In this document: positions 41,331-60,393 of the stretch, piece after piece
Position numbering within the stretch: position 1 is the stretch's first letter
How the letters are laid out: each line of letters opens with the position of its first letter
Assembly (NCBI GenBank): GCA_000002445.1
Contig: CP000066.1
Coordinates: forward strand, 576,001 to 640,000
Reading direction: 5' to 3'
From: Trypanosoma brucei
Taxonomy: Eukaryota
DNA length: 64,000 nt
The notes under the pieces: model-generated
Database searches by the model: none
What the model saw: the letters and a program-made list of their open reading frames with translations, nothing else
Told to the model about the DNA's origin: nothing
Made by a program: the position numbers and the translations under genes

Positions 41331-41385
41331 GATGATGATGATGATGATGTTTTTGATTTGTTTTGTTTTGTTTTGTTTTGTTTTG
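41331..41385. repeat. (GAT)6 followed by (TTTTG)5 microsatellites
   Basis: Read directly: GAT units at 41331-41348 and TTTTG units at 41361-41385. Confidence 0.9.
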
Positions 41386-45351: not shown

Positions 45352-45864
45352 CGAACTGTTTTTTTTTCCTGCTTTGTTTACGCGGGCGAAGAATAAATGT
45401 CACAATGGTGTGAAATGGGGCGGGGGAGGGGAACAGAAGCCCTTCGTTCTTTCCCTTCCTTTTCAAGTTAGCAGTTGGATTACTTCAGAAGGCACAAAAC
45501 AAAAAAAAAAAGAAAAACACATAGCAGGGCAAAAAAAAAAATTTTAAAAAGGAGGAGGACGAGGAGGAGGGAGGAAAGAGGACAAAGTTACGCAGCACAA
45601 ATGCAACGTATGCGGTTCCGCTATTTAGAGGAGAGAAAAGTTAAATTGATGTTAGTGTTAGTGCGCCACGCGTCGTCATGCGCACCAAAACATAATTCTT
45701 CGTTTCAGGTGTATGCGTTCGAACTCACCATTACCTCCTCCCTTCCTCCCCCCGCCCCACGCAACCGACCCGAATGACTCTCTTAATTCGTTATTCGCAC
45801 CGTTAAAATCATTTTTTTTTTGTTTTCACAATGTGCAACGCATCCATTCCTTTTCACCCACCCA

Positions 45865-45876
45865 CCCCCCCCCCCC
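45865..45876 (+). repeat. C12 homopolymer
   Basis: Counted directly (45865-45876), preceded by cacccaccca. Confidence 0.95.
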
Positions 45877-46085
45877 ATTCCCTATCACTTAACATAAGTT
45901 TCGAATAAAAATAATAATAATAATAATAACAAAATAAAATAAAAATAAAGTGAACGAAAAGTTGCGGTTTGATGTGTGTCCCAACCCATTCTCTTGAATG
46001 TGCAATATTTTCCCCTCCTCTCTTCTCGTATCTCTTCTTTTAATGTTTACTCCCGCATTGTTTGTTTATGTGTGTTTGATTGAGT

Positions 46086-46099
46086 GGGGGGGGGGGGGG
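46086..46099 (+). repeat. G14 homopolymer
   Basis: Counted directly (46086-46099). It lies 210 nt downstream of the C12 run and 336 nt upstream of the ATG at 46435. Confidence 0.95.
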
Positions 46100-46434
46100 C
46101 CCACAGTGAAGGAAACACGGAGGAAAAACCTTTAGAAACCAAACAAACAAATAAATAATAACACCAACATCAGGGGAAATAATACCGGAGCGAAGAAGTA
46201 CTGAATTCAAAGTGATATATAGAATAGAAAGAAAAATCAATCAAAAAAAAGGAGTATTAAACACGAATAGAAGGTACGCAACGAGTAGTCTCCTCATATC
46301 TGATTGCATACCCACACTCTGTTATTATCACTCCCTTCTATTTTATTTTTTATTTTGTTGTTGTTAGAAGAAAGAAAAAAAAACTGAGAAACGAAAAAAA
46401 AAAGGTTGTGGTGGTGGTACTGTTGAAGAAATAA

Positions 46435-46815
46435 ATGCCACCAAAGAAGAGCAGCAATGCCAAAGCCGGCAAATCCGAAGCTGTCAGCGAAGTGAGCAAA
46501 ATTAATATGGATTATGTGCAATATGAACTTCCATCACCTGATATGGCTGTTGTGGAAAAATATATTGAAACGGCCAAAGCAAAAGCTCGCGCCTCATCTG
46601 CGCAACGAAGGCGGGAAGGCCGAAAGAGTTGTTGGAGGGCGGCGTCACCAAACATGTCACTTTGCAAAAAAATTCGTGGAGTGTTTTGTCCAAATATCTT
46701 TCAAACTCTGAAAGGACCTGTGAGGGATTTTGTGTTGGGATTTGTCGTTACTTTCTTCGTCATGTATGTATTTTTTGTGGCGTTGTATTTCGAAAAGGCG
46801 CCTTCCAAGCGATAG
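46435..46815 (+). CDS. Small tail-anchored membrane protein (126 aa), hypothetical
   Basis: ATG ORF on the PTU strand with a polar/basic N-terminal part and a single C-terminal TM segment (RDFVLGFVVTFFVMYVFFVALYFEKA). Confidence 0.5.
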   Translation: MPPKKSSNAKAGKSEAVSEVSKINMDYVQYELPSPDMAVVEKYIETAKAKARASSAQRRREGRKSCWRAASPNMSLCKKIRGVFCPNIFQTLKGPVRDFVLGFVVTFFVMYVFFVALYFEKAPSKR

Positions 46816-47107
46816 GCGGTAAAATAGATCTCAAAAACAAAAGAAAGAAAGAAAAAAAGAGGGACTGAAGAAATGAAGATGAAGATGAGAGAAATGAGTG
46901 AAGAAGTTACGAGGGGAGGGAGAGAAAGAAAAAGAAAAAGGGAGGGAAGGAGGGAAAGAAATAATTTCAAAATAAAACAAAAAAAAAGGGAAGTGACCAC
47001 AAATAGACGGCAACGCAAACGTTTTACGGTGTCGTATAATTTGGTAACCATCTTTAATGAAAAGTGTCTTCATTAGGCGAGGGACACCGTTCGTTTTTTG
47101 TTTTCTT

Positions 47108-47175
47108 TATATATACATATATATATATATTTATTTATTTATTTATTTATATTTATATATCCTCTCTCTCTCTCT
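47108..47175. repeat. Compound microsatellite (TA)n-(TTTA)n-(CT)n
   Basis: Read directly: tatatatacatatatatatatatttatttatttatttatttatatttatatatcctctctctctctctg. Confidence 0.9.
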
Positions 47176-47856
47176 GTGTGTTCCTCTTCCTTTCCCTATC
47201 CCTTTCTCTCTAATTCGCTAAATCTTCATTTATCTTCTTTCCATCCCCTCCCTTTCCACATCCTTTGATTTGTTTTGGAGGATTTTCGCACATCTTGTCG
47301 AGTTTCTACCGATTATTGTGGTGGTGAATTCTCGAATGCATCAAATGGTACAAATATTTCTTTCTGTTGCTTTTGTGTTCTCCCCTCTTTTTTTCTTTTA
47401 GGCGTTGTTATTACCGCTACGGTTGGTATTTTTGTACTTTCTTCGCATTCTTTTGGCATGTGTTGTCTTTGTATTTATTTAAATCTTGTTCTTGTTGTCG
47501 TTTTGCCTTCATACTCTTACAGTTCTAAACAGAAACAAACAAAAAAAATACCTTTACATCACTTTCCTTTACTTCCCTTTTACTTCATTTCTTTCTTTCG
47601 GCTTTCCTCTACCCATCTGCTGTTTGATTTATTTATTTATTGGTGCTTATGCGTCACGTAAATGTGCACATGAATAAATAAATAAATGAATGAATTGTTC
47701 TTTGCTTTATTAGTTCAAGGGAGAAAAAATAAATAAATAATAAATAGTAGTAACAGCATCACCAACAGTAGCGGCATAACAAAGAAAATTTCAAAAAAAA
47801 AGAAATAGAGGTGTGAGTTTATTTGCATCATTTATAAATATTAATATCAAATATAA

Positions 47857-48054
47857 ATGCCTGAGACGCCACAGCGAAATGGATTCAAGCGTCCAAGTCT
47901 TGCAGCTAAATTATTCGGTGATGCGGATGTCGTTTATTCGAGAGAAACAACATCTCGACTAACGGATTTTGCGGGAACATTTTTAGTCGGATTTTTCGCG
48001 GTTTACTTCACAATTGCGGGATATTTACTTTATCGTGAGGCAGCGCTCTCGTAA
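47857..48054 (+). CDS. Very small tail-anchored protein (65 aa), speculative
   Basis: ATG ORF on the PTU strand. It is the only non-low-complexity ORF in a 2.3-kb spacer. Its C-terminal TM segment TDFAGTFLVGFFAVYFTIAGYLLYREA resembles that of the 46435 ORF. Confidence 0.35.
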   Translation: MPETPQRNGFKRPSLAAKLFGDADVVYSRETTSRLTDFAGTFLVGFFAVYFTIAGYLLYREAALS

Positions 48055-49054
48055 AAAATAAAAAATAATATAATAATAATAAATAAATAAATAAATAAAG
48101 GAGAAGAAGAGAAAAATAAAATAAAATAAAACGTGTCATGGCGATGTTGTTGGATATTATTATTATTACTATTTATTCCAACAATGAAGATGCACCCATA
48201 ACGATCAGTTGAAGGGAAGGAAAGTGTGAAAAATCAATCATTACACTACCTATTTAGACATAGGTTTGGAGGGGAGAGATCTTTTTTTAAAAAAAACAAA
48301 AAAAAAATCTCCCCGGGTCCCTTTTGTGTTCTTCCTTTTATACGTGCGGTGTGTTGCGCTGAGAACTCACTGAGAAGTGCGTGACTGCGTATTTAAAAAT
48401 AAAAATAAAAAAAACACCGTCACCTTCCCTCGGTATTTAGTTAATCATTATATTGCCATACCTGTTTTTATTTTATTTTATTTACTTACTCACTTTGATC
48501 ACAATGTAAGTTCTCGGGCCGGTGCCGTTTTTTTTTTGCAATTTTTGGTGTTATGATCTTCCATTCGTCCCTCTTTTTTATCTCCTTTTTTTTTCCTTTT
48601 TTTTTCCACTGCTTTCTCCGCCTACACACTTTTAAAAATGAAATAAAAATTGTGCAGCATTTTCGCGCAGAAAGTCAATGTGCTCCCTTTATAAAAGCTA
48701 AGAGAATGGGGGAGTGTTGCGTACGCTCATGCGTTTTTGTGAGGGTTAATGAGTTTTCATCCTTTCAAAACAAAAACACAAAAGGGAGAAAATAACAGGG
48801 ACAAAGGGGGGGAAAAAAGTAGCAATGTTTTGTTTATTGATAATCCGCTAATTTATCTTAACTGCGTTACGGAATATATGATATATATTTGTGTGTGTAC
48901 GCGTGCATGTGAAATATCCAACACTCATTGCGTCATTTTGAAATTTATACCTTCTTTCTTTTTTGTTTTCCTTAAAATAATTCCGCTCCGCTTGGTTATT
49001 GCTCTGAAAGCTCAAGCGGCGCAGCGGGGGGGCGACTTTCCGTTGTTGTTGCTG

Positions 49055-49072
49055 TTATTATTATTATTATTA
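49055..49072. repeat. (TTA)6 microsatellite
   Basis: Read directly, preceded by (GTT)3. Confidence 0.9.
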
Positions 49073-49139
49073 TTGCTATTGTTGTGTGTTGTTCTTTTTT
49101 TTTAAAAATAAATAAATAAATAAAAGGAAACAGCATTGT

Positions 49140-49898
49140 ATGCTCCGGTGTATACAATGTAATGCGGCGGTCTACCGAATTGTTCAGCCGGAAAACGAGG
49201 TGGTTGAGAAGTGTGGGACATGCGGTAGGCGGTGTGATAGGTATTATGAATTCTCTAACTGTCAAAAGTGGATAAGCATCACGTTGCTTGAGAAACCTGC
49301 ATGGATTCATGTGTTATTTAACAAAAAAGATATCCGCGCGACATTATTTTGCACAGCCCTCCTGTCACGACTTATTGAAGCGTACGTCGTGCGAACGAGT
49401 TTGGTGTATGGCGCCTTACGCATGCTTCGGTCTAAGGGACCGGTTTCTAACGTAAGTTCGGTTGCGACACTTCAGCTTTTCCGGAATGTGAATCCCAAAA
49501 TAGAACCGCTGATGGCGTATCAGGACACTTTGCCCAATATATTTATTTGTGCTTGTGGAGAATATTTGCTTTGCCTTTTGGTCACTGTTATATTTGCGCT
49601 TCATTCGTGGCGTCGTGGTGGCTCGGCTTTATGGGATGTTGTACTCACATGGATGACATGTGTTAATCTTGCCTATTCAGCGAAGTTGTGTTTCGTAGTG
49701 TTCCTTATTTGGCGCATTCCCATCGCATTAGTATCCCTGGTGGATCTTATCAGTCTCCTTTGGGCTGCTCGCGGTTTCAGTCTTGTGGAAAATAGATATC
49801 CACCATTATTTACATCTGTTGTTGTGCTGATTTGTACGGCAGCCACACGATATCTCTTCCGTAGTGTTACGCAGTGGAGTCCACAACTTCTGGTGTGA
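49140..49898 (+). CDS. ARV1: ARV1-like lipid/sterol homeostasis protein
   Basis: 252 aa. The N-terminal Arv1 homology domain has a zinc ribbon, CIQCNAAVYRIVQPENEVVEKCGTCGRRCDRYYEFSNCQKWISITLLEKPAWIHVLFN (cf. consensus C..C...............C..C....D.Y.E........D..L.K..AY.H.LFN). Several TM segments follow. Confidence 0.78.
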   Translation: MLRCIQCNAAVYRIVQPENEVVEKCGTCGRRCDRYYEFSNCQKWISITLLEKPAWIHVLFNKKDIRATLFCTALLSRLIEAYVVRTSLVYGALRMLRSKGPVSNVSSVATLQLFRNVNPKIEPLMAYQDTLPNIFICACGEYLLCLLVTVIFALHSWRRGGSALWDVVLTWMTCVNLAYSAKLCFVVFLIWRIPIALVSLVDLISLLWAARGFSLVENRYPPLFTSVVVLICTAATRYLFRSVTQWSPQLLV

Positions 49899-50647
49899 TC
49901 GAAATGAATGTGAATGTCTCTTTTTCCCATTGTTCTCGCCCTTTTGTAATCATATTTATATATTTTTTCTTGTTTTTTTTTGTATTCTTCCGTCCTCGGT
50001 CCGGTCGGTTACCACTGTAAATGTAACCTACAACTTTCCTTTCCTTTCCTTTCTGCTTTGGTTTGGTTTGGTTTGGCTTGGTTGCACCGAAAGCACTTTT
50101 CTACTTCTCCATCGCCGCAATAATTGTTTTTTGTGGTGTTTCCCGTTCATTCGGTATCAGCATCAGATGGGAACTTTGTCGCTGCTTCTTTTCTTTGTTG
50201 TGTACCTTCCTCTTCTCCACTATTAATTGCGGTGCCCTCTGATTTATTTGCTTCGTCGTGTATATGCTGATGTATGTATATATATATATATAGAAATATA
50301 TAAATATACATGTGTGTATATGTATATATTGGCCCTTTTTGTTTCAATTTATTTCTTCGTCGTCTTTTCATGTTTCGTTATTGTGCAAGTAGAAACACCC
50401 ACAGGTGTCTGACACTTAGGCATAACAGTGTAAAAAGGTGGGGATTAGTTACGGGTGGAAGAAGAGGAGGAAGTTGAGGAAAAGATAGCAACGAAACAAA
50501 AGCTAAAGCTAAAGCAAAAAAAAAAAAGAAGAGAAAACGATAGAAGGGAGAGTAAAAAAACGGAAAAAAAACGGGAAAAAGTTAAGAGAACAATCATAGG
50601 GCAATAAAATAAGGCCAGATTTTCGCACAGGTGATAAACAGGAAACA

Positions 50648-53539
50648 ATGGATGCGAAACTTGTGTTCTGTGCGCACTCGCTCAAGTTACCAACGCTGAG
50701 CATTCCCCCAGCTCTGTCAGTAGATAATGAAACCATCAACTTCAGATGTCCGGAACCTCTTGCAGAAGCTGGTTTCCCCGTTCCAAACGCATCATTTACT
50801 GCTGACGTGATGATGGAGCAACCGCAATCCCGCTCCATTTACCAGCGGGTGTTCGCAACAGCTGCACGGGATTTCGAAGGGCGTAAAAATCTGGTAGTTT
50901 TCAGCTACGGCGTGCGTTCCACACCGAAACGGCAGCTTATGTTTGGTTCGGAATCGGGTAGCGGTTATGCTGCGAAGATCATTGGCGATGTTGTGGATGT
51001 TGGTGCCACCAAAGGCATCTTCGCCATCTCTGCGTATGGTGTTGGTTCCTCAGAGCATCTCACCGACTTCACTGATGAGAATAACGAAATGGGAGTAATT
51101 GTAGAATCGGTGAAGGAGGGCCCGCGTGTGCGTATGGTTGGGCGTGTTCGTGTAACGTCATCGGAGGATGTGCGTTCCGTTTTTAACACAGTTACGAAGA
51201 ACTATCAAAAACATTTCGAGTCAGTACTCCGCGAGAGGCAACCAACAGCTGAGCTTGAAGCCCTTCCGCCATATATGCCTGAGTCAATGATTCTTCAGCT
51301 CTACCGTTATGATGATGAGGAAGCATTCAGCGAGTATGTGGAAGCGAACTCCATGACGTTTGTTGCACTGGGAGACTCGGAACGGCCTGTTCTTTGTGGA
51401 ATTGAAGAAGAAACTCAGCAGGAGTATGAAAAGACACAGAAAGTCCTTGCGTCAGCAGTAGGAATTATCTCCAGTATTCGCTGTAATCGTCTGCGCATTC
51501 CATTCGGCAAGTCGAAATTAAGTCAGCTCCTTCGCCGTGCATACAATGCCGAGAAGGGCAACCCCAACAACGGCTACAATGAGCCAACATCAACCGTTTT
51601 TATTATTCATGCCTTTACAGACGCTGTTTGGGCAGAGGAGTCATACCACTGCCTTTTACTCTCGCGACGAGTTAGCAGCGTTGTTGGCACGAGCAGCATC
51701 GGTTCCATTACGCGCGACCTCAGTGTCGATAAGTGGCGTTTGGATCAAGATATTATGGAGTTGCGTGATGAGCTTCAAATTGCGCGCACAGTGTATGACT
51801 ACAGGCCCTGTATATATGACCAACCGAAGCCAGTTCAGAATATCAGAGAGGAGGAACAGAAACGCATTAGCGCCATTGTTTCAAAACGGGAGGAAGCCCG
51901 TGAAAGGCAGCTGAGTTTGGTCCGCGAGCAAGCCAAGCAGGATGCTGATAAAATCATTAAGGATCTCGAAGCTCGGACGGGGACGACGCTCTCGGCGCTG
52001 GAGGCCTCCCTCGAGGCGAAAATGAAGGAAAACTCGGCGCTTCATGCGGACAGGGAAAAACGAATTCATGAATATGAGCAAACCTTAGAAAAGATTCGCA
52101 AAAAGAAGCAGGAGGAGGAATCCGCGTGCGAGAAGCTACGTGAAGAGATGCTCCAGCTTGAACAGGAACTTAGTGTTCGGCAAAACGCAATTGAGAGCAA
52201 GCAGAAGAATTTGGAAATGATAAAGCTGGATAAGTCAAAGGGCCGTGACGCGGTTATGCGTGAGCGACAGTCCATACAAGCGATGCGCAAAACGGTGCTA
52301 GAGGAGAGGCGGCGTCAGCGCAAACAGTGGATTAACCAAATAAAAGAAATCAACGCTAAGGTTATTGATCAGGTCCGGATGCTGGCCGAGGAACGGAAGA
52401 AAAACGGTGAGCAGCCCACAGCAAATGAAGAGGCTGCTGAAAAGGCAATCATCGCGGATGTGCGAACTATCGAGGAATACTTGCCAAAACTCATTTCACT
52501 TGAGGACGTTCCCGTGAATTTGGAGGAGACGGAAGCCATTCGCCGACAATTTGCGGATGTGTTTGCGGAAGAGAAAAAGACATATCTTGCGCGGATCGAA
52601 GAGGAGAAGGCGCGGAGAGAAAAGCTGGAGCGTGGCCTCGAAGTATATCGTCAGCGCCTACTCGACACATATCAAGCTAAGAAAAAGGAGAAGGTGCATG
52701 ACGCCATAACAAAAGAGCAACACCTCAGCTCATTGGTGGATCAAGTCATTACGTACTTGCGCAACGGTGTCCGAATGAGCAAAATTTCAAGCAAAGGAAA
52801 TATTCGCCGGCGGTTCTACTTCCTCTCCGAAGATTACAAACGCATTCACTCCTGTGAGATTGATAACCAAGGCGCGCCAATCAGCCGGAAGAAACCACCC
52901 GTCACCATATGGCTGAAAGATATAAAGAAAGTGGTTATTGGCGTATACACATCTTCATTTACAAACTTTAGCAGTGAGGCTCAGTTGGCGAAGACGCGTC
53001 AGGAGGCCGTTTCTGACAGCGGAACTTACCGTCAAGACCCAACGCAAAACATCACCTCAGCCAACCTTGGTTTGCATAATTACAGATCCTTTGCACTTCT
53101 GCTTCGTGGAGGTAAATCTCTGGAAGTTGTTTGCGAAACGGACAGCGACTGCGAGGCTTGGCTTGTTGCGCTCAAGCGACTCCTTCAAATAAAATCTCCT
53201 ATTGAGCGAATTCTTGAGGAAAGGATGAACGGCAATACGACGAAAGAATCACCAAGTAACACACATGAAGGTGCTGTTGATATAAAATGGGGTGGTTCAC
53301 TTGATATACACAACATGCGCGGGTTTGTTTCCCTGTCGTCTGAAGAAGCCACGCTGTGTAGTGAAAACCACATCCCGCCCGCTTTGTTCCTTCGGATGAA
53401 GCAAGAAATGGCAGAAAAGGCGGAAAGGAATACCATCACGATTTATGATGTCCGTGTTTCTTCCGGTCTTGACTTATTCCGCTCAGGGAAGCTTTATGAT
53501 TTCTTATGCGAAAAGAGAGTCATACCGCTCCCGTACTGA
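50648..53539 (+). CDS. Kinesin-like protein with degenerate motor motifs, long coiled coil and C-terminal PH domain
   Basis: 963 aa with a kinesin-fold N-terminus. FTADVMMEQPQSRSIYQRVF...NLVVFSYGVRSTPKRQLMFG sits where F.FD.VF...Q..VY...N..IFAYGQTGSGKT.TM.G is expected. MTFVALGDSERP corresponds to LVDLAGSER, and IPFGKSKLSQLLRRAY to IPYRDSKLT.LLQDSL. Residues ~400-700 are an E/K/R/Q-rich coiled coil. The PH-like region is KGNIRRRFYFLSEDYKRIHSCE...LEVVCETDSDCEAWLVALKRLLQ. Confidence 0.78.
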   Translation: MDAKLVFCAHSLKLPTLSIPPALSVDNETINFRCPEPLAEAGFPVPNASFTADVMMEQPQSRSIYQRVFATAARDFEGRKNLVVFSYGVRSTPKRQLMFGSESGSGYAAKIIGDVVDVGATKGIFAISAYGVGSSEHLTDFTDENNEMGVIVESVKEGPRVRMVGRVRVTSSEDVRSVFNTVTKNYQKHFESVLRERQPTAELEALPPYMPESMILQLYRYDDEEAFSEYVEANSMTFVALGDSERPVLCGIEEETQQEYEKTQKVLASAVGIISSIRCNRLRIPFGKSKLSQLLRRAYNAEKGNPNNGYNEPTSTVFIIHAFTDAVWAEESYHCLLLSRRVSSVVGTSSIGSITRDLSVDKWRLDQDIMELRDELQIARTVYDYRPCIYDQPKPVQNIREEEQKRISAIVSKREEARERQLSLVREQAKQDADKIIKDLEARTGTTLSALEASLEAKMKENSALHADREKRIHEYEQTLEKIRKKKQEEESACEKLREEMLQLEQELSVRQNAIESKQKNLEMIKLDKSKGRDAVMRERQSIQAMRKTVLEERRRQRKQWINQIKEINAKVIDQVRMLAEERKKNGEQPTANEEAAEKAIIADVRTIEEYLPKLISLEDVPVNLEETEAIRRQFADVFAEEKKTYLARIEEEKARREKLERGLEVYRQRLLDTYQAKKKEKVHDAITKEQHLSSLVDQVITYLRNGVRMSKISSKGNIRRRFYFLSEDYKRIHSCEIDNQGAPISRKKPPVTIWLKDIKKVVIGVYTSSFTNFSSEAQLAKTRQEAVSDSGTYRQDPTQNITSANLGLHNYRSFALLLRGGKSLEVVCETDSDCEAWLVALKRLLQIKSPIERILEERMNGNTTKESPSNTHEGAVDIKWGGSLDIHNMRGFVSLSSEEATLCSENHIPPALFLRMKQEMAEKAERNTITIYDVRVSSGLDLFRSGKLYDFLCEKRVIPLPY

Positions 53540-55197
53540 GCGGTGAAGGAAATATGAGAGTGTTATCAGGAGCCAACAGAATTTGTTTCTGAACTTTACC
53601 TTCCCTTCCTCTTTATTATTTCCCCTTATTTCAGTGATGATTCTGCTGCCGTCGCATTGTCCCACCCGCTACGTTCAATTATTTAGTAAATAGTTGGGAA
53701 GGGTGTCCACGTTTTTTTTTCAAGTTCTTTTTTTTTTTTTGGAACTTCCGGTCATATCCGAAATGGGCAGGGAGGTAGAAAGAGGAGGAAAGAGCAATAT
53801 AAACTTGGTTCCAGTCTGCGTTGCGTGAAATCCCCACGTTTCGAAACTGAAATAATATGTTCGAATGTTATGCTTAATAGTAACAATCACAATAATAATA
53901 ATAATACGTCTCACATCATCTTTCTTTCTTTCTTTATATTTAAATTTTTATTTGACAAAGAAAAAAGGATTATGGGTTTATAGTTAGGAAAAAATGACTA
54001 TATTTCCCCAATAACTGAGTTAAGGCGCATACCGCAGCAACATGCGAAACCCAAGTTTCAGTACCACTCAAATATACATTCATTAGTTAAAAATTTTTTT
54101 GCTTGCGGAATGAAGCTCGTTAGCTCACGCAAAAGGTGATGAAGTGGAACCGGCAATTTTTACAAAAAAAAAGCGTTATTGCTTTAATGACACAAGGGTG
54201 GGTATTCTTCGTAAAAACATAACGGCGTGATATGGGGTCAAATATGCGGACAGCCGCATATTTTAATTTTCGCACATGAAAAAAGCTCACCCGCAGCCAC
54301 ATCTCACTAGGGAAAGTTAGGAAGGGTAAAGTGCTCCCGCAAACGATGTGACGGAAGGATCAGAAATGATGCATTTGAAGATGGGGGCTGCCGGATTTTA
54401 TTATTTTGGGCCGGGGGAATACTCTTGCAAATGTGTGGAACGGGGGAAAAGGCAACACGAGGGGAGGGTTTTTTTTTAAAAAAAAGTGTCCGGGGAACAG
54501 GAATTTAATACGCTGTGCGGAGCATGGTGAAATTGGCAGAGGATGGTTTCATGGGAAGGACAGAGGTAGAATTCGGGCAAAACTGCTTGGAAGAAACTAA
54601 GCGAGGGTGCAATTTGTTAGAAATATCTAAATAAAGCGAACGTGGCGGATTGGGGGAAAGGGCGAGAGGAAACGCAAGAAACGCGAGCGCTTCTGTCAAA
54701 TACGGAAATACAGGAAATTGGAAGCAGGGCCAAGTTATCCGGTCAGATGCATAAAGACGCAACTCCCTCGTAATAATCCTCTGGAGAATACCATTAGGAA
54801 GTTTTATTTTAAAAAAAAAAAACTTTCGAAGTTCAACGCAAGATTCTTCGGAAGTACCGCAAAACTAAAACCGTGCCTACACTCGCTCCAGTCGACAAGA
54901 CGCTTTTAGCTAGTTTCTCAGTTGAGGTTGCACCTTTTGCTCCCAAGCATACTTGTTGTTTTGCTTTATCTGAAGAGATATAAAAAAAATACCACGCATC
55001 CGCAAAATGCGTCTGAACCAAACCGATCTTTTATGTATCGTATCAACTAGCCGATGAGGTGCGTGAGGAAACTTCCTTCATAGAATTGCTAAAACAACAG
55101 GTGTGTGGGGAGGAAGAAAGTGTTGTATAACAGTTTTGCATCGTTAAGACTCCGTGGGCACGTACCTGAACCAAACGTTAGGATTTAAGGGGTGTGC
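53540..55197. terminator. Convergent strand-switch region (candidate RNA pol II transcription termination zone)
   Basis: The plus-strand array ends at 53539 and the minus-strand array ends at 55198. There is no credible CDS or tRNA between them. In trypanosomes such regions are the known termination sites, marked by base J, H3.V and H4.V. Confidence 0.75.
54153..54386 (+). repeat. Inverted-repeat arm A (about 234 bp)
   Basis: It is the reverse complement of 63159-63390. Hand alignment gives about 13 substitutions and 4 indel positions, e.g. the shared blocks ttattgctttaatg, cacaagggtgggtattcttcgtaaaaacataacggcgtgatatggggtcaaatatgcgga and ccacatctcactagggaaagttaggaagggtaaagtgctcccgcaaac. Confidence 0.9.
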
Positions 55198-56385
55198 TTA
55201 AAAAACTAGAAAAAATAACTTAAGTGGTTCTGGGAGGCGGTTTACACCGCTGGAGGTGAATAATCTTCGTATGGAAGTCACGCATTCGCTCCCATTCCAT
55301 TCGCACCGCGGCTTCTGTTCCAGGCAAGTTACCTTGCTTTCGAAACCAGAGCATCCTCTTTTAGAGGACGTAGTCGGTTTTTTCCCCTCCAGTCCATTAT
55401 CAGTATTATTGGATTCGTCCTTTTCTTTTTCGCTTGAATTGTTTGGGACAGGTCGTGCCCCCCTCTTCAATTCGTTTACTTGGTTTTGAATCTTCACGAG
55501 GTACTCCTCGGCTTGGATCAGTTCTTCCATTCTGGTTGCAGCTTCTCGCAACTTTAGATACCACGAAATTGTTGGCGTGCTTTCATTGACGTGTCTTGGG
55601 AGATATATTACGCATCGGCCATGGCCAACCTCGGTGCTTCCGTCGCAGCCGTTGTGTAAGTCGGCGCCGCGCGCGCCCAGTAAGTTTCGTGAATCCGATG
55701 AAGAGTCCGGTATTTCCTGGAGTTCGCCAAGGAAGAAAGCGACCGCCTCTGAGAGCGCTTGAAGCGGCCGAGTTTTCTCTCTCCTCACGTTGCTGCACTT
55801 GGGATGGAGCAAATTCCAGTGATCAGGAGAATTTCTCTGGGGTACCCATGATCCTACATAAGTGGTGTTGCATCCATCACAGCAAACCGCGCTGCCGCCT
55901 TTGCCTTCGCTGGATGCTGCACAGATGCACAGTAAATCAAGCGCCAGCGCATCACCCGCTTTATTTCCGGGCTGGCCGCCAGCTCTTCCACATAACTCCG
56001 ACCTCCCACCCCGCGTGCGCCCGACCACCACCTGTTTATGACCGTTGCCGTACAGCGCTTCTGTTAAATTTTTTCTGATAGCTGATAAGGCCCGGCCGTT
56101 CCATAAATCACCGTTCTCTTCCTTATATGTTTTCGCTTTTAGTTTAAGTTCCTCAAGTTTTTTAACATTTTCTTCGGGCGCTTCGGCCTCTCCCTGAATT
56201 TCGTCTTCTGTTTCCTTAACCTTGCGCTCCAGATCCTCCGGTGTTTGTGTATCCAGCGCAAGATTTACAAAACCACACAGCGCTTCGAATTCCTTTCCAT
56301 TCACAATGTTGTTTTCATGCGCCTTTGAATTGACGCAGATATGTTGCAGCGTTACCACCGCAACAAACACGATGTAACTCCTCAT
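55198..56385 (-). CDS. VSG-related (b-type N-domain-like) surface protein with signal peptide and hydrophobic C-terminal tail
   Basis: The ORF-track start at 56553 is TTG. The likely start is the ATG at 56385, giving the signal peptide MRSYIVFVAVVTLQHICVNS (395 aa). Motifs are KEFEALCGFVNL and GDALALDLLCICAASS, with many Cys residues. The C-terminus SSGVNRLPEPLKLFFLVF is GPI-signal-like. Confidence 0.78.
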   Translation of the reverse strand: MRSYIVFVAVVTLQHICVNSKAHENNIVNGKEFEALCGFVNLALDTQTPEDLERKVKETEDEIQGEAEAPEENVKKLEELKLKAKTYKEENGDLWNGRALSAIRKNLTEALYGNGHKQVVVGRTRGGRSELCGRAGGQPGNKAGDALALDLLCICAASSEGKGGSAVCCDGCNTTYVGSWVPQRNSPDHWNLLHPKCSNVRREKTRPLQALSEAVAFFLGELQEIPDSSSDSRNLLGARGADLHNGCDGSTEVGHGRCVIYLPRHVNESTPTISWYLKLREAATRMEELIQAEEYLVKIQNQVNELKRGARPVPNNSSEKEKDESNNTDNGLEGKKPTTSSKRGCSGFESKVTCLEQKPRCEWNGSECVTSIRRLFTSSGVNRLPEPLKLFFLVF

Positions 56386-56831
56386 CCCCAACAATTTCGT
56401 ATATGCCTTTTTGTTCACAATGATGTCACCTGTCTCCCCAGAAAATTCGAAAGATGACGTACCAAACTTAGCGAAAAATACACACATACCGCGTAGGTGA
56501 GGATCATGACGAATAAAAAGCTCTCTCGGCTTCTCTCCCCAGCACACACACAAAAAATTGTTACATAACGTTTCAGCTCCCTTGAGAAGTCATAGCATCA
56601 CAAGAGAGCTCCACATGGAAGCCACCGCTGCTATCTCGATAGCAGCATCAAAAAGCCAGACACAAATTCCAAAAAAAGAAGGTGATACCACCTTAATTAT
56701 TCATCCAAAGAAAAACGAATTCATATGCGATTGTTAATAAACCCACATATTGTTAAAATGAAACACACGTACACATAAAAGCAAAATATAAAAAAGATAC
56801 TGCACGACAATGTTGGTAGCGTACCAGTAAA

Positions 56832-58202
56832 CTAAGACATACAAAAAAGGGATAGAATCATTAATGTAAAAATATCAGTTGTTATATCTATATAGTTGAA
56901 TCCATTATTATTTACTTCAGCATTGCCACCTTCACCATCATCCTGACCTCGGTTACTTCGCCATAGCTCAGCATCACCACCTAGCTTCACCTCAAGAAAT
57001 ATTTCCTCTGCCTCATGTTGGTATTCTTCCAATTCGTGAAGATGACTGTCAGACTCTTTGGCATACTTTGCCATTTCTTGTAGTTGCTCGGTGGCGTTAG
57101 TAAGATGGTTGTACCAAGGGATCCCACCATTTTCAAGTGTGTAGTTGTAGCTGACACATGTGAATCCAGCAGTATGACCCGTGCAGGTGCGATTCTCGTT
57201 GTTTAATGTTTTCACATAACCAAGAATACCCTTCACCTGATACTTATCCTGTTCCATTTCCACTAACGCATCGAACTGAGCTAGCGCACTCTTTAAGGTT
57301 TTCACATTAGATGCAATATTCTTGTACACGCAAGCTTTACTAATCACATCCCATGCCTCAGTATGGTTGTATTTTATATTTTCAGGCTTGCAGGTATTAT
57401 AGTTGCTCGGACAATACTCAGCCATCATAGTCCAACTACCATTTTTAGGTCTCCTTATTGCATCCTTACAAGGACAGTCATATCCACTGTATATGTTTTC
57501 ACTACTTGAGCCAGTATCCATTTGGTATACGCGTGTCTGTCGCTCTTCCTTCTTTTTTTCTATAGCCTCTCCCACACATAGGCAAAAGAAGTCATTAATT
57601 AGTGTCTTTCCAACTAGCTTGTCTCCGTAAGAACCACAGCTTGCGTCCGCATTGTAGACACTATTGAACAACAGTGATTTGTTTCCCCTCATGGCTTCCT
57701 CCAGAGTTTTATTCTCATTTCTTGCCACATCCACAGCGTCGCCATACACAGCCCTCAGCATATTTTCTTCAGCAGAGCGACTTGCATTCAAGGCTTTTGT
57801 CCTATTCACCTCTATCTGCTCCTTAAGCTTTTTCGCCTTCTCAAATAGTTTCTTCATCTCCTGATATGCTGTCGTGCTGTTAGATGAATTGTTCGAGCCC
57901 TTATTGCCACCAGCAGCTTCTGCCTCACTGACCATTTCCTCCAAATTCTTCAGAATCTCTCCTTCCTTCTCACGATTCTTAAAGGAGGGTTGCGGGGCCT
58001 CTGCTTGCGTGATTCGGTAAATCTTGCACAGTGTTTCGAACTCACCAACGTTGTGATGTTTTTCATCTGCATCGACGGTCTCCATAATCCTATCCCAGTC
58101 AAGCATATCAGTTCTCCATCGATATTCTGCCATATCACCCTGAGAGGAAGGAGATAAAACAACCACAAGCATCCCAACGGCAAACACTGTTTCGTGTCTC
58201 AT
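56832..58202 (-). CDS. VSG-related (b-type N-domain-like) surface protein with signal peptide and hydrophobic C-terminal tail
   Basis: The ORF-track start at 58289 is TTG. The likely start is the ATG at 58202, giving MRHETVFAVGMLVVVLSPSSQG (456 aa). Motifs are GEFETLCKIYRI and GKTLINDFFCLCVGEA. The C-terminus DITTDIFTLMILSLFCMS is GPI-signal-like. Confidence 0.78.
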   Translation of the reverse strand: MRHETVFAVGMLVVVLSPSSQGDMAEYRWRTDMLDWDRIMETVDADEKHHNVGEFETLCKIYRITQAEAPQPSFKNREKEGEILKNLEEMVSEAEAAGGNKGSNNSSNSTTAYQEMKKLFEKAKKLKEQIEVNRTKALNASRSAEENMLRAVYGDAVDVARNENKTLEEAMRGNKSLLFNSVYNADASCGSYGDKLVGKTLINDFFCLCVGEAIEKKKEERQTRVYQMDTGSSSENIYSGYDCPCKDAIRRPKNGSWTMMAEYCPSNYNTCKPENIKYNHTEAWDVISKACVYKNIASNVKTLKSALAQFDALVEMEQDKYQVKGILGYVKTLNNENRTCTGHTAGFTCVSYNYTLENGGIPWYNHLTNATEQLQEMAKYAKESDSHLHELEEYQHEAEEIFLEVKLGGDAELWRSNRGQDDGEGGNAEVNNNGFNYIDITTDIFTLMILSLFCMS

Positions 58203-58440
58203 CGTGATTTTGCCTCTACAATCATCAGTCAAAAGGAGGGAAAAAAATCTTATTATCACGTTCATTACTGTTATTGACAAACACAACAAACATGGAGATA
58301 CATCAATGTATCGAAGTTAACAAGTGCCCGACACAAGTCAACCGAAACAGTATCCAACAAAACAGGAAGCACATCCCAATACATACAGTTAGATGAGTGT
58401 ATTCTTTCAAGCTGGACATCAACGTTAGACTTCCTCACAA

Positions 58441-58660
58441 CTGCGGTATTCTCCTTTTCGTTACACCATTTCTCCTAATTTCCTCCCCAAAAAATCTGCT
58501 TTATTTGATACCATGCCAGTATATCCAATTTTCCAACTGAGTTCCTCTTGCACTCCCTTGATTTCCTCAATAATAAGCTGATCCATTCTCTTAATGAAGA
58601 CTTGCACCTTTATGCCATGTTTTTTTCCACATCCTTCATTGGATCTGTTAGTTTAAGTTG
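58441..58660 (-). pseudogene. Possible relic of the 3' part of a VSG-related gene
   Basis: Own minus-strand translation gives TDPMKDVEKNMA*, then in another frame KVQVFIKRMDQLIIEEIKGVQEELSWKIGYTGMVSNKADFLGRKLGEMV*. The RMDQLIIEEIKGVQEEL stretch resembles RMEELIQAEEYLVKIQNQVNEL of the 55198 gene. It is short, frame-broken and weakly similar. Confidence 0.25.
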
Positions 58661-59418
58661 CCATTTTATGGTCTTATTTGCTAATAGATTACGTGCTTAA
58701 TTCGCACGTGTTACCTTTATCCAATGCACACAACTCTGCTGCTGAACTCCACTCAGCATATCCTCCTCCACTCATACGCATACTCACAAAACTTTTTGTT
58801 TACCTATTCTTGACCATGCACAGTTTCCTGCCTTCCATTTTCTTAAGCCATACACTAGAAAAGATAAAAGTTGTATTTTCAAAACACCATCTCGGATACT
58901 TATGCTCACTATTGAGGCCCTTGATTATATGGTGACATGATGGAATATTATGGTATTTTCCAACACAAAAAAGTCCCAGAATAATTAGTGACCTTCCCTG
59001 TCAGCACCCTCATTTAGATCGTTCACCTCATTAACCAGCCACCATCCTTATAGATACGCTGGTAGAAAAAAACGGAAGTTATGCACGTTATCGCCCATCC
59101 CCTCAACGAATTCTATCCACCCTTACCCCACACAGGTTTTTTGCATAAGAAACGACAAACAAGAAACAAAACTACTCTTGTGAGCACAAAACCAAATATT
59201 TCTTCCTTACTTCACATGCAGAAAGAATTAACACACCCCACTACCCTACAACACAAATGGTGGAGGGACAGCCATAGTCACTACCACTCACAATTAAGAT
59301 AACCCAGACAGGGAAACTCCAGATAAAGAAATGCCCAGTTACGAGAAAGATCCTAGCGCGCACACGTAAAGATATTTCATTTATTATGGAACAGGGAGAA
59401 TATTAATGAAAGTACTTT

Positions 59419-60393
59419 TCAGATGGTAAAATTAGTACTCTTCATATTATCAATGTTATTCGTGCTGAACTGCAGCGAAGTGAAATTCCTATGGATATCG
59501 TTGAAGTAGCTCTGCAGTAAAGTGATATTGGCCATCATATCCAGGAGTTCAGGAGGTGCTTTGCCAGAAGTAAAAGGTTCGATAAGAGGGTCAAATATCT
59601 CCTCCACGTAAATTTGGAGCTGAAAAAAAGCGGGGCCGTTCTCACGCCAGTTTATTAAGCCAGTTGAATTCTTCACCGCACCACCCTTATATAAGTTGTC
59701 ACGCGGTAAGTTCAAGCATTTGCTCACAGATCCAGATCCAGTTAAAACATCAATTTGAAGGCAACCTCCCCTGTATTTTTGGAGAGTGATCTCGTTCACA
59801 CCGGTTAATAAAGGACATGTCTGATCAACACATACGACTGGGAACCCCCTGACACCTTTCAGCGCTCCTTTCTTGCACTCGGGTCCTTCATCATTGCTCA
59901 CGGCTTTAACGTCATCCCACACAGTTCTTGCGATCTCAGCAATAGCTGTGTAATATTTATTTGATGTTATGAGGGCACCAGGTATTGCATTCCTCACTGC
60001 CCTCACGCTTTCATTAACCTCAGCAAATAATCCACCTGCCTTAGCAACAAGATCTCCCATTGCATTTCCATAAGATATAAGGTTTTCCAATTTATCATTT
60101 TCCTCTACCATTACACTGCTAATAACACTCAAATATATAACACTTTCGCCTGTTTTCCCTTCCATGTCATCCAGCATACGAGACGCATTTGCGTATACCT
60201 CCTCATTCAAAAAAAGCTTCCTCTCGCCATCTGTATATAGTTTGTTTAAGGCATCTGAAAGACATTTGAGGTAACATACGGATTGGTTTAAGTTTGTGCC
60301 CTTGTCATCATCTATTGATGTGCAATAACTTTCTTCTGCCACTCCAAAGGTCACAAAAAAAAAAACAACCAATCCTACAATCTTAATTTTCAT
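59419..60393 (-). CDS. Secreted/surface-family protein, divergent from its three neighbours, no C-terminal hydrophobic tail
   Basis: Within the 421-aa ORF the likely start is the ATG at 60393, giving the signal peptide MKIKIVGLVVFFFVTFGVAEES (324 aa). The helical N-terminal half is CYLKCLSDALNKLYTDGERKLF...AMGDLVAKAGGLFAEVNESVRAVRNAIPGAL and the middle is Cys-containing. It ends polar (NNIDNMKSTNFTI). It lacks the LC.C motif of the neighbouring genes. Confidence 0.62.
   Translation of the reverse strand: MKIKIVGLVVFFFVTFGVAEESYCTSIDDDKGTNLNQSVCYLKCLSDALNKLYTDGERKLFLNEEVYANASRMLDDMEGKTGESVIYLSVISSVMVEENDKLENLISYGNAMGDLVAKAGGLFAEVNESVRAVRNAIPGALITSNKYYTAIAEIARTVWDDVKAVSNDEGPECKKGALKGVRGFPVVCVDQTCPLLTGVNEITLQKYRGGCLQIDVLTGSGSVSKCLNLPRDNLYKGGAVKNSTGLINWRENGPAFFQLQIYVEEIFDPLIEPFTSGKAPPELLDMMANITLLQSYFNDIHRNFTSLQFSTNNIDNMKSTNFTI

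What the first reader, a model, noticed from the sequence alone, without database searches (positions are those of the whole stretch)
50648..53539. Kinesin-fold protein with degenerate ATP-binding motifs fused to a coiled coil and a PH domain
Seen in the sequence: the N-terminal ~340 residues align motif-by-motif with a kinesin motor, but the catalytic signatures are lost. The P-loop GQTGSGKT is GVRSTPKR (nt 50909-50932), and switch II DLAGSE is ALGDSE. Structural motifs are retained (IPFGKSKLSQLLRRAY for IPYRDSKLT.LLQDSL, VLASAVGIISSI for the SLSALG.VI.AL helix). The motor-like domain is followed by ~300 residues of heptad-rich E/K/R/Q sequence and a PH-like domain (…RRRFYFLSEDYKRIHSCE…LEVVCETDSDCEAWLVALKRLLQ). 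Established knowledge: Walker A Gly-Lys-Ser/Thr is required for kinesin ATPase activity, and trypanosomes have many orphan kinesins. Inference: this is a pseudo-motor that may still bind microtubules statically and link them to phosphoinositide membranes through the PH domain, for example at the flagellar pocket, FAZ or subpellicular array.
Basis: partly seen in the sequence, partly recalled or inferred. Interest (0 to 1): 0.5.

Follow-up and report, generated by a model that had tools for sequence, protein, structure and literature searches.

The report
TbPH1, a known dead-kinesin PH protein

Summary
Window 50648-53539 (+) is a 963-aa, 110-kDa ORF, and every quoted motif sits at the stated coordinates. 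An orthologue-only profile hits only kinesin motors in the PDB (best E=6e-13). A confident AlphaFold model of aa 1-340 matches only kinesin motor domains (Foldseek E down to 3.5e-19, TM up to 0.80). The PH domain passes Pfam's cut-off.

The protein is 100% identical to XP_843843.1 / Q582W2 and matches published TbPH1 (Tb927.3.2490; Benz et al., Mol Microbiol 2022) in mass, P93/R95 and domain order. That paper already reports the dead Walker A, the coiled coil, the PH domain and a C-terminal homeodomain-like fold. It also reports a tight complex with the active kinesin TbKifX2A, localisation to the microtubule quartet at the flagellar pocket, and pocket enlargement on double knock-down. So the finding is already known.

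The stand-alone tether idea misses the motor partner.

Small additions from this work:
- Switch I and II and the RxRP motif are also lost, yet the pocket remnants are the best-conserved part of the head.
- The PH domain is PLC-delta1-like and keeps its basic signature.
- The tail is SWIRM-like.
- TbPH1 is a degenerate member of a wider Discoba kinesin-PH-SWIRM family.

The parts
50648..53539 (+). Complete TbPH1 (Tb927.3.2490) coding sequence, 963 aa plus stop, 110.07 kDa
   Evidence: ORF list. 100% identical to XP_843843.1/Q582W2 of T. brucei TREU927 on a 1,653,225-bp contig. Mass, P93 and R95 match the published description.
50648..51682 (+). Kinesin motor-like (pseudo-motor) domain, aa 1-345
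   Evidence: Profile A2 against the PDB hits only kinesins, best E=6.1e-13. AF2 pLDDT is about 90 or higher. Foldseek top 50 are all kinesin motors, E to 3.5e-19, TMt to 0.80.
50909..50932 (+). Walker A / P-loop remnant GVRSTPKR (aa 88-95), against the kinesin consensus GQTGSGKT
   Evidence: Coordinates. Across 34 orthologues: G88 34/34, P93 29/34, K/R94 34/34, R95 34/34. The G93P and T/S95R substitutions are as published.
51233..51286 (+). Switch I remnant (aa 196-213): SSRSH is absent and replaced by ERQPT...ALPPYMPES, with a ~9-residue insertion
   Evidence: HMMER alignment to 1sdm and MAFFT alignments against intact relatives. P207 33/34, P208 30/34, Y209 31/34.
51365..51400 (+). Switch II remnant ALGDSERPVLCG (aa 240-251), against DLAGSER
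   Evidence: L241, D243, R246, P247, L249, C250 and G251 are invariant in 34/34. The canonical first Asp and the Gly are replaced.
51407..51544 (+). alpha4-L12-alpha5 region (aa 254-299), the main tubulin-contacting elements of kinesins; basic and highly conserved (RLRIPFGKSKLSQLLRRAY)
   Evidence: Helix 254-278 in the model. R281, L282, R283, P285 and R297 are 34/34. Mean identity for aa 283-303 is 0.83, against 0.53 for the whole head. The tubulin-contact role is established kinesin knowledge applied by inference.
51719..51796 (+). Neck helix directly after the head (aa 358-383, DKWRLDQDIMELRDELQIAR...), the most conserved inter-domain segment
   Evidence: Helix 358-383. Region 346-400 has mean identity 0.68. 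W363, R364, Q367, D368, E371, L372 and E375 are invariant.
51842..52762 (+). Segmented long-helix / coiled-coil stalk (aa 399-705)
   Evidence: AF2 helices 399-444, 449-525, 533-585, 592-617 and 625-705. E/K/R/Q fraction 0.35-0.62. Annotated as CC in the paper.
52739..53185 (+). PH domain (aa 698-846), PLC-delta1-like, with the conserved basic signature K712...R720-x-R722
   Evidence: PF16457, 36.5 bits against GA 27. Profile A3 against the PDB: PLC-delta1 PH 1mai, E=3.6e-9. Foldseek 1mai E=2e-6, TMt 0.72. K712 34/34, R720 34/34, R722 33/34.
53288..53515 (+). C-terminal SWIRM-like helical domain (aa 881-956), the paper's 'homeodomain-like fold'
   Evidence: Ada2alpha SWIRM 2aqe: E=0.013 with the single sequence and 7.6e-7 with profile A3. 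Foldseek 2cuj E=4.2e-4, TMt 0.66. Sub-threshold Pfam SWIRM hits in the orthologues P0050 and P0045. pLDDT >90.

Best explanation
The ORF is TbPH1 (Tb927.3.2490) of Trypanosoma brucei, a published kinesin-like protein. Its N-terminal head keeps the kinesin fold and the basic alpha4/L12/alpha5 face but has lost every nucleotide-handling motif, so it almost certainly cannot hydrolyse ATP. The most likely mechanism has three steps. First, TbPH1 pairs through its conserved neck helix and coiled-coil stalk with a catalytically active, plus-end-directed X2 kinesin. The main partner is TbKifX2A, with TbKifX2C as a second partner. This gives a one-live-head, one-dead-head dimer analogous to yeast Kar3-Vik1. 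Second, the dead head serves as a non-catalytic microtubule-binding foot that helps hold or target the complex on the microtubule quartet (MtQ) around the flagellar pocket. Third, the C-terminal PH plus SWIRM-like module is the cargo or membrane end. It contacts FP45 and possibly acidic phosphoinositides of the pocket membrane, so the complex helps keep the pocket compact. Shown in the literature: the salt-resistant TbPH1-TbKifX2A complex, cytoskeletal fractionation, MtQ localisation, BioID proximity to FP45 and TbKifX2C, and pocket enlargement on double RNAi. Shown here: the identity, the kinesin fold, loss of N1-N4 with strong conservation of the remnants, a PLC-delta1-like PH with a conserved basic signature, and a SWIRM-like tail. 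Inferred only: loss of ATPase activity, tubulin binding by the pseudo-head, dimerisation through the neck and stalk, and lipid binding. Sub-confidences: identity about 0.98, dead ATPase about 0.85, Kar3/Vik1-like division of labour about 0.55, PH-lipid contact about 0.4.
For: Identity: 100% match to XP_843843.1/Q582W2 on a 1.65-Mb T. brucei TREU927 contig. The protein is 110.07 kDa with P93 and R95, exactly as published ('110 kDa', 'G93P and T/S95R'). Fold. Motif loss and conservation. Mean identity is 0.76 for the P-loop remnant, 0.85 for the switch II remnant and 0.83 for L12/alpha5, against 0.53 for the whole head. The neck region is the most conserved linker at 0.68. Partner, localisation, interactors and phenotype come from the bioRxiv version 10.1101/2021.09.29.462327, published as Mol Microbiol 2022;118:155-74. 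The authors themselves draw the Kar3/Vik1 analogy. PH. Tail. The PH and tail model as one rigid unit (pTM 0.88).
Against: ATPase loss is 'likely but empirically unproven' according to the authors. The Walker lysine position stays basic (K/R94 34/34), and the pocket remnants are under strong constraint, which could mean residual or altered ligand binding. No experiment shows that the pseudo-head touches tubulin; MtQ binding could come entirely from the partner's motor. Direct coiled-coil heterodimerisation has not been mapped. In the HMMER alignment, two of the PLC-delta1 IP3 ligands (K32, W36) align to S714 and N718, and the beta3-beta4 ligands are not clearly matched. The best-scoring Pfam family, PH_12, includes the ELMO1 PH (Foldseek hit), which from my own knowledge acts mainly in protein-protein contacts. 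Single knock-downs gave weak phenotypes.
Confidence: 0.75

Rival explanations
1. One reading: TbPH1 works alone as a static cross-linker. The dead head binds microtubules in a rigor-like way and the PH domain binds phosphoinositide membranes, with no motor partner needed.
For: The tubulin-facing alpha4/L12/alpha5 elements are conserved and basic. The PH is PLC-delta1-like with a conserved K/R signature. TbPH1 fractionates with the cytoskeleton and is released by salt. TbPH1 alone also gives a signal at the anterior cell tip that TbKifX2A lacks.
Against: TbPH1 co-purifies with TbKifX2A as the two prominent bands of the eluate in 300 mM NaCl and overlaps with it almost completely. The stability of TbKifX2C and FP45 depends on TbPH1 and/or TbKifX2A. 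The neck helix that normally mediates kinesin dimerisation is the most conserved linker.
Confidence: 0.12
2. Adaptor/regulator model: the pseudo-head does not bind microtubules. It is a protein-protein interaction or auto-regulatory module that stabilises and regulates X2 kinesins and links them to FP45 and dynamin-like proteins. MtQ targeting comes from the partners' active motors.
For: The pocket remnants (LGDSERPxLCG, GxRxTPKR) are invariant and could form a new binding surface. Partner and interactor stability depends on the complex. DLP1/2 were enriched in the BioID data.
Against: The elements that in kinesins face tubulin are among the best-conserved parts of the head and stay basic. The authors propose that TbPH1 may confer MtQ specificity. 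No direct data favour either side.
Confidence: 0.18
3. The head is not dead. It retains non-canonical nucleotide binding, or slow hydrolysis, that acts as a switch.
For: G88 and a basic residue at the Walker lysine position are universally kept (K/R94 34/34). E245 and R246 of switch II are kept. The pocket is under stronger constraint than the rest of the head.
Against: Four changes argue against it together. Pro93 replaces the penultimate Gly and Arg95 replaces the Mg-coordinating Ser/Thr. The switch I SSRSH is absent. The switch II Asp and Gly are replaced. No RxRP follows beta1. The authors note that divergent but active Walker A motifs do not carry both of the Walker A changes.
Confidence: 0.07

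Closest known systems
TbPH1 (Tb927.3.2490), Benz et al., Mol Microbiol 2022;118:155-74 (bioRxiv 10.1101/2021.09.29.462327)
   Same: It is the same protein. The sequence is 100% identical to the TREU927 entry XP_843843.1/Q582W2. It shares the 110-kDa mass, the Walker A P93/R95, and the domain order pseudo-motor, CC, PH, C-terminal helical fold.
   Different: Nothing differs in the object itself. The paper argues inactivity from the two Walker A substitutions only and does not mention switch I/II, lipids or SWIRM. It also left TbPH1 out of its kinesin tree because of a PF00225 E<1e-40 cut-off.
Kar3-Vik1 / Kar3-Cik1 (budding yeast kinesin-14 heterodimers with a non-catalytic motor-homology partner)
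   Same: An active kinesin is paired with a kinesin-fold partner that lacks a working nucleotide site and, in yeast, still binds microtubules. The TbPH1 authors invoke this analogy themselves.
   Different: From my own knowledge, Vik1's motor-homology domain is C-terminal, has no recognisable P-loop at all, and works in a minus-end-directed kinesin-14. TbPH1's head is N-terminal, its partner is predicted to be plus-end-directed, and it carries a PH and SWIRM-like tail. There is no sequence relationship beyond the shared fold, and the heterodimer geometry of TbPH1 is untested.
Kinesin-PH-SWIRM-like kinesins of Discoba (for example P0054 Namystynia karyoxenos, P0122 Hemistasia, P0126 Sulcionema, P0111 Andalucia godoyi); TbKifX2C may be one of them
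   Same: They share the overall architecture and a homologous PH and tail module. TbPH1 aa 685-953 against P0054 gives 31% identity, E=3e-30. More than 30 cluster representatives carry both modules.
   Different: These relatives keep GQTGSGKT, SSRSH and DLAGSE, whereas TbPH1 has lost all three. P0054 lacks the K712/R720/R722 basic signature in its PH domain. Whether TbKifX2C belongs to this group could not be tested, because its sequence was not retrievable.
PLC-delta1 PH domain (PDB 1mai)
   Same: It is the best sequence-profile and fold match for the PH domain (E=3.6e-9; TMt 0.72). The IP3 ligands K30 and R40 align with the conserved residues K712 (34/34) and R722 (33/34).
   Different: The ligands K32 and W36 align to S714 and N718. 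The TbPH1 PH has a long insertion at aa ~765-810. No lipid-binding data exist.

Membership tests
Kinesin superfamily (motor domain, PF00225) | Kinesin motor-domain three-dimensional fold | tested here: met
   AF2 model pLDDT is about 90 or higher over aa 1-340. The Foldseek PDB top 50 are all kinesin motors, E 3.5e-19 to 1.8e-16, TMt up to 0.80.
Kinesin superfamily (motor domain, PF00225) | Significant sequence homology to kinesin motors | tested here: met
   The single sequence fails Pfam PF00225 (no hit at E<=10) and gives only E~0.03 against PDB kinesins. The orthologue-only profile gives E=6.1e-13 with 60/60 kinesins. The orthologue P0045, which has the same degenerate P-loop, passes Pfam's cut-off (61.1 against 29.3 bits).
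Kinesin superfamily (motor domain, PF00225) | N1 Walker A / P-loop GxxxxGK[S/T] | tested here: not met
   The sequence is GVRSTPKR: Pro replaces the penultimate Gly and Arg replaces the Ser/Thr. This is conserved family-wide.
Kinesin superfamily (motor domain, PF00225) | N2 switch I (NxxSSRSH) | tested here: not met
   It is replaced by ERQPT-(insertion ALPPY)-MPES in the HMMER and MAFFT alignments.
Kinesin superfamily (motor domain, PF00225) | N3 switch II (DxxGxE) | tested here: not met
   The sequence is ALGDSE: the first Asp becomes Ala/Ser/Val and the Gly becomes Asp. Only the Glu (and the following Arg) is kept.
Kinesin superfamily (motor domain, PF00225) | Microtubule-stimulated ATPase activity and motility | not testable with these tools
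   The authors state that inactivity is 'likely but empirically unproven'.
Kinesin superfamily (motor domain, PF00225) | Microtubule binding through alpha4/L12/alpha5 | not testable with these tools
   The elements are present, basic and highly conserved. Cytoskeletal fractionation and MtQ localisation are published, but direct binding by the head has not been shown.
PH domain (PF16457 PH_12 / PH clan) | Profile match above the curated threshold | tested here: met
   PH_12 gives E=7.7e-9, 36.5 bits against 27, over aa 698-846.
PH domain (PF16457 PH_12 / PH clan) | PH fold (seven-stranded beta sandwich capped by a C-terminal helix) | tested here: met
   C-terminal model pLDDT 91.1. Foldseek hits the PLC-delta1, ELMO1, BTK and GRK2 PH domains, TMt 0.5-0.72.
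PH domain (PF16457 PH_12 / PH clan) | Phosphoinositide-binding basic signature K-Xn-(K/R)-X-R in beta1-beta2 | tested here: met
   K712 34/34, R720 34/34, R722 33/34. K712 and R722 align with PLC-delta1 K30 and R40. Actual lipid binding has not been tested anywhere.
SWIRM domain (PF04433) | Profile match above the curated threshold, or significant homology to solved SWIRM domains | tested here: inconclusive
   There is no Pfam SWIRM hit for the T. brucei sequence. The orthologues are sub-threshold (25.7 and 21.7 bits against 28.6). The orthologue profile hits the Ada2alpha SWIRM at E=7.6e-7, and Foldseek hits 2cuj at E=4.2e-4, TMt 0.66. 'SWIRM-like' is the best description.
Kar3/Vik1-type live-head/dead-head kinesin heterodimer (works-like comparison) | Stable complex between an active kinesin and a non-catalytic kinesin-fold partner | not testable with these tools
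   Published reciprocal co-IP of TbPH1 and TbKifX2A in 300 mM NaCl. The stoichiometry and the coiled-coil interface have not been determined.
Kinetoplastid X2 kinesin family | Phylogenetic placement of the head inside the X2 clade | not tested
   The TbKifX2A/B/C sequences could not be retrieved. The paper's tree excluded TbPH1 through its PF00225 cut-off.

The most novel reading that the evidence does not exclude
The 'dead' nucleotide pocket may be a repurposed, strongly selected site rather than a decayed one. The invariant elements are G-x-R-x-T-P-K/R-R and L-G-D-S-E-R-P-x-L-C-G. One possibility is that the site locks the head in a permanently nucleotide-free, strongly microtubule-bound conformation. 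Another is that it forms the docking surface for the partner head. On this reading the pseudo-head lineage also predates Kinetoplastea, because diplonemid proteins P0093, P0098 and P0124 share its degenerate head and neck. It would have arisen from an ancient Discoba family of active kinesins with a PH and SWIRM-like tail that also exists in the jakobid Andalucia. That would make TbPH1 an old, dedicated non-catalytic subunit for a class of heterodimeric kinesins, not a kinetoplastid oddity.
Probability: 0.3. Interest if true: 0.4.

Novelty: already known. Interest (0 to 1): 0.15.

Why it matters
As a discovery it matters little. The gene, its degenerate Walker A, its domain layout, its kinesin partner, its location on the microtubule quartet and its knock-down phenotype were published in 2022.

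It remains biologically interesting as one of the few documented pairs of a kinesin with a dead kinesin-like partner. It is also a handle on the poorly understood microtubule quartet and flagellar pocket, a structure essential for trypanosome endocytosis and immune evasion.

The modest additions here sharpen the experiments still missing (head ATPase and microtubule binding, PH lipid binding, the dimer interface):
- All four nucleotide motifs are lost, yet their remnants are invariant.
- The PH domain is PLC-delta1-like with a conserved basic signature.
- The tail is SWIRM-like.
- Relatives with intact motors and the same tail exist in diplonemids and a jakobid.
- Probable diplonemid pseudo-head orthologues exist.

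The last two points suggest that the statement 'kinetoplastid-specific' may need revisiting for TbPH1's lineage.

Tried and rejected
1. Pfam on the single sequence gave no kinesin hit.

2. I tried three routes to the T. brucei X2 kinesins (TbKifX2A/C) to test whether TbPH1 is a degenerate X2 paralogue.
- A broadened PH and tail profile (A4) returned only fragments, many ~190-aa T. cruzi pieces and a partial Bodo saltans paralogue.
- A search with the prokinetoplastid paralogue P0088 returned only itself.
- The paper's supplementary files are not held.
X2 ancestry therefore remains untested.

3. A search for later functional work on TbPH1 found only one citing mention, as a possible DLP1/2 interactor. 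The 2025 flagellar-pocket-collar paper does not mention TbPH1 at all.

4. I considered that the intact kinesin P0054 might bias the kinesin match, so I rebuilt the alignment without it (A2) before the PDB search, the structure prediction and the exhaustive search.

5. I considered that the C-terminal helices might be PLC-like EF-hands, because full-length PLC-gamma aligned over ~297 columns. The rmsd is 18 Å, and the sequence profile specifically hits Ada2 SWIRM domains, so SWIRM-like is preferred.

6. I rejected a mis-registered intact P-loop. No G-x4-GK[ST] match occurs anywhere in the protein or in its orthologues among the profile-search hits scanned, and none is present at the aligned position in any of the 34 orthologues of A2.

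7. There are no tRNA genes in window 45000-57000, which includes the strand-switch region.


Full report
**1. What is at the coordinates**

Window 50648-53539 on the + strand is a single uninterrupted ORF of 963 codons with an ATG start. The encoded protein has a calculated mass of 110.07 kDa.
- GVRSTPKR at aa 88-95 (nt 50909-50932)
- ALGDSE at aa 240-245
- VLASAVGIISSI at aa 266-277
- IPFGKSKLSQLLRRAY at aa 284-299
- the two PH strings at aa 720-737 and 825-847

The start codon is right, because orthologue profiles align from residue 1.

**2. Is the kinesin resemblance real?**

On the single sequence the evidence is weak.

I collected orthologues and built an alignment of 34 of them. I deliberately left out the one relative with an intact motor, so the profile could not be pulled towards kinesins (A2). 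Three results followed:
- The profile matches PDB kinesin motor domains exclusively. All 60 listed hits are kinesins, the best is E=6.1e-13, and coverage is aa ~12-347.
- An AlphaFold2 model built on the same alignment is confident over the head (pLDDT about 90 or higher for aa 1-340).
- Its Foldseek search of the PDB returns only kinesin motor domains in the top 50 (E 3.5e-19 to 1.8e-16, target-normalised TM up to 0.80).

The kinesin fold is therefore established.

**3. The catalytic motifs**

- Walker A is GVRSTPKR instead of GQTGSGKT.
- In the HMMER and MAFFT alignments, switch I (SSRSH) is replaced by ERQPT...ALPPYMPES with a ~9-residue insertion.
- Switch II is ALGDSE instead of DLAGSE.
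- Beta1 is followed by HSLKLP rather than RxRP.
- No G-x4-GK[ST] match occurs anywhere in the protein or in its orthologues among the profile-search hits that I scanned, and none is present at the aligned position in any of the 34 orthologues of A2. A mis-registered intact P-loop is therefore excluded.

The remnants are not drifting. Across the 34 orthologues, which go down to 37% identity, conservation is as follows:
- G88 34/34, P93 29/34, K/R94 34/34, R95 34/34
- L241, D243, R246, P247, L249, C250 and G251 all 34/34

Mean identity to the T. brucei residue is 0.76 for the P-loop remnant, 0.85 for the switch II remnant and 0.83 for L12/alpha5. The whole head averages 0.53.

The alpha4/L12/alpha5 elements are the main tubulin-contacting face in kinesins; that is established knowledge and was not tested here. 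In this protein they stay basic and nearly invariant (R281, R283 and R297 34/34; K288 32/34).

**4. The rest of the protein**

After a short low-confidence linker comes a neck helix at aa 358-383. It lies in the most conserved linker region of the protein (0.68). Long helices then span aa 399-705, with an E/K/R/Q content of 0.35-0.62.

The PH domain passes Pfam's curated cut-off (PH_12, 36.5 against 27 bits, aa 698-846).

A profile of the C-terminal 274 residues (A3) has two informative PDB matches:
- The best is the PH domain of phospholipase C-delta1 in complex with IP3 (1mai, E=3.6e-9).
- The next is the SWIRM domain of Ada2alpha (2aqe, E=7.6e-7).

A separate AF2 model of this module is very confident (pLDDT 91.1, pTM 0.88), which suggests that the two domains pack as one unit. 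Foldseek confirms the PH fold (1mai TMt 0.72, followed by the ELMO1, BTK and GRK2 PH domains). It also gives a SWIRM hit (2cuj, E=4.2e-4, TMt 0.66).

In the HMMER alignment, PLC-delta1's IP3 ligands K30 and R40 align with K712 and R722. The signature K712...R720-x-R722 is 34/34, 34/34 and 33/34 conserved. A second basic cluster, R747-K748-K749, is also conserved. The ligands K32 and W36 are not conserved; they align with S714 and N718. Lipid binding is therefore plausible but unproven.

**5. Identity**

The protein is 100% identical to 'hypothetical protein, conserved' XP_843843.1 / UniProt Q582W2 of Trypanosoma brucei brucei TREU927, on a 1,653,225-bp contig. The neighbouring genes fit T. brucei: Arv1 lies upstream, and VSG_B-domain and ESAG1 genes lie on the opposite strand downstream.

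[quoted passage not shown] It is published as Mol Microbiol 2022;118:155-74. It describes TbPH1 (Tb927.3.2490) as follows:
- Walker A carrying 'G93P and T/S95R'
- a coiled coil and a C-terminal PH domain
- a proximate homeodomain-like fold

The window protein is 110.07 kDa and has P93 and R95. The locus tag itself is not in the databases I could query, so the link rests on these matching properties. I rate the identification at about 0.98.

**6. What is known about how it works (from the paper)**

- TbPH1 fractionates with the cytoskeleton and is released by 300 mM NaCl.
- It co-purifies reciprocally and tightly with TbKifX2A (Tb927.9.15470), an N-terminal kinesin with a canonical Walker A.
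- Both proteins localise to the microtubule quartet, enriched where it wraps the flagellar pocket.
- BioID adds FP45, the PH-bearing kinesin TbKifX2C (Tb927.6.2880) and, moderately, the dynamin-like proteins DLP1/2.
- Double RNAi depletes FP45 and TbKifX2C and enlarges the flagellar pocket.
- The authors compare the pair with Kar3/Vik1 and state that loss of ATPase activity is 'likely but empirically unproven'.
- The text never mentions switch I/II, lipids, phosphoinositides or SWIRM.
- TbPH1 was not in their kinesin tree, because inclusion required PF00225 E<1e-40.

**7. Best mechanism**

Combining the published data with the anatomy, the most likely model is a live-head/dead-head kinesin pair.
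- TbPH1 dimerises with an active X2 kinesin through the conserved neck and stalk.
- Its nucleotide-blind head acts as a non-catalytic microtubule foot that contributes MtQ affinity or specificity.
- The PH and SWIRM-like module is the cargo or membrane end (FP45, possibly pocket-membrane phosphoinositides).

The complex, the location and the phenotype are shown. Dead catalysis, tubulin contact by the head, the dimer interface and lipid binding are inferred.

They are scored in the rival section, with the experiments that would separate them.

**8. Wider family (incremental, not part of the original finding)**

An exhaustive profile search of 1.84 billion cluster representatives found 929 hits at E<=1e-3. 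I sorted them with domain-specific HMMs and motif scans and looked up the sources. Four groups emerge.

(a) TbPH1 orthologues run throughout Kinetoplastea, including Trypanoplasma, prokinetoplastids and many environmental sequences. All have the degenerate motifs.

(b) More than 30 representatives have intact GQTGSGKT/SSRSH/DLAGSE motors and carry a homologous PH and SWIRM-like tail.
- They include diplonemids (Namystynia P0054, Hemistasia P0122, Sulcionema P0126) and the jakobid Andalucia godoyi (P0111).
- P0054 matches TbPH1 aa 685-953 at 31% identity, E=3e-30.
- P0054 scores 1e-87 on PF00225.

(c) A group has partly degenerate motors and the same tail (P0088 Apiculatamorpha, P0151 Papus and others).

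(d) Diplonemid proteins (P0093 Lacrimia, P0098 Diplonema japonicum, P0124) share TbPH1's degenerate head pattern and neck:
- P-loop GHDVTRKF
- switch II VLPDAARP
- the same switch I insertion
- AIRLKRRRVPF in alpha4/L12

They do not share its PH or tail in my HMM search.

This suggests two things. TbPH1 is a degenerate offshoot of an old Discoba kinesin-PH-SWIRM family, and the pseudo-head may predate kinetoplastids. No tree was built, and I could not retrieve the X2 kinesins to test the obvious hypothesis of X2 ancestry.

**9. Verdict**

The thing itself is already known and published. Interest is therefore low. The residual value lies in the small refinements listed in sections 3, 4 and 8.

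Noticed in passing
The TbPH1 paper calls it a 'homeodomain-like fold'. It is specifically SWIRM-like: Ada2alpha SWIRM at E=7.6e-7 with a family profile, and Foldseek 2cuj at TMt 0.66. It models as a rigid unit with the PH domain (pTM 0.88). A SWIRM-like domain in a cytoskeletal protein is unusual, and its role is unknown.
   Followed up: partly
P0093 (Lacrimia lanifica), P0098 (Diplonema japonicum), P0124; compared with window aa 78-304: These diplonemid proteins have a TbPH1-like degenerate head (P-loop GHDVTRKF, switch II VLPDAARP, the same switch I insertion, AIRLKRRRVPF) and a matching neck, but no detectable PH or tail. They are possible diplonemid orthologues, which would make the pseudo-head older than Kinetoplastea.
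   Followed up: partly
P0054, P0110, P0111, P0122, P0126 and >25 other representatives: Catalytically intact kinesins carry a PH and SWIRM-like tail homologous to TbPH1's. They occur in diplonemids and in the jakobid Andalucia godoyi. This looks like a wider Discoba kinesin-PH-SWIRM family of which TbPH1 is a degenerate member.
   Followed up: partly
P0035 (EukProt/MMETSP0127, labelled Platyophrya macrostoma, a ciliate): This full-length TbPH1 orthologue is 52% identical and has the kinetoplastid-type degenerate motifs, yet it is filed under a ciliate transcriptome. It most likely comes from a bodonid contaminant or prey in the culture.
   Followed up: no
P0214-P0233 (Trypanosoma cruzi strains): Many separate ~140-230-aa T. 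cruzi entries, 64-73% identical to the TbPH1 PH region, lie on different contigs, alongside the full-length orthologue P0006. They could be gene fragments, pseudogene copies or assembly splits.
   Followed up: no
window 49140-49898 (+): The upstream neighbour is an Arv1-family protein (PF04161, E=1.7e-16) of 252 aa with an N-terminal CxxC...CxxC zinc ribbon.
   Followed up: no
window 55198-62956 (- strand): A cluster of VSG_B-domain ORFs (55198-56553, 56832-58289, 61733-62956) and an ESAG1-family ORF (59419-60684) lies on the opposite strand. TbPH1 is therefore the last gene of a + strand unit, before a convergent strand switch at ~53.5-55.2 kb. GC skew flips sign at ~56 kb. No tRNA genes lie in the switch region.
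   Followed up: partly
window 43537-45351 (+) and 40000-50000: A 604-aa ORF has a sub-threshold NOP9-like PUF repeat match (26.6 against 27 bits). The surrounding 40-50 kb stretch has noticeably lower GC (0.36-0.45) than the rest of the window.
   Followed up: no
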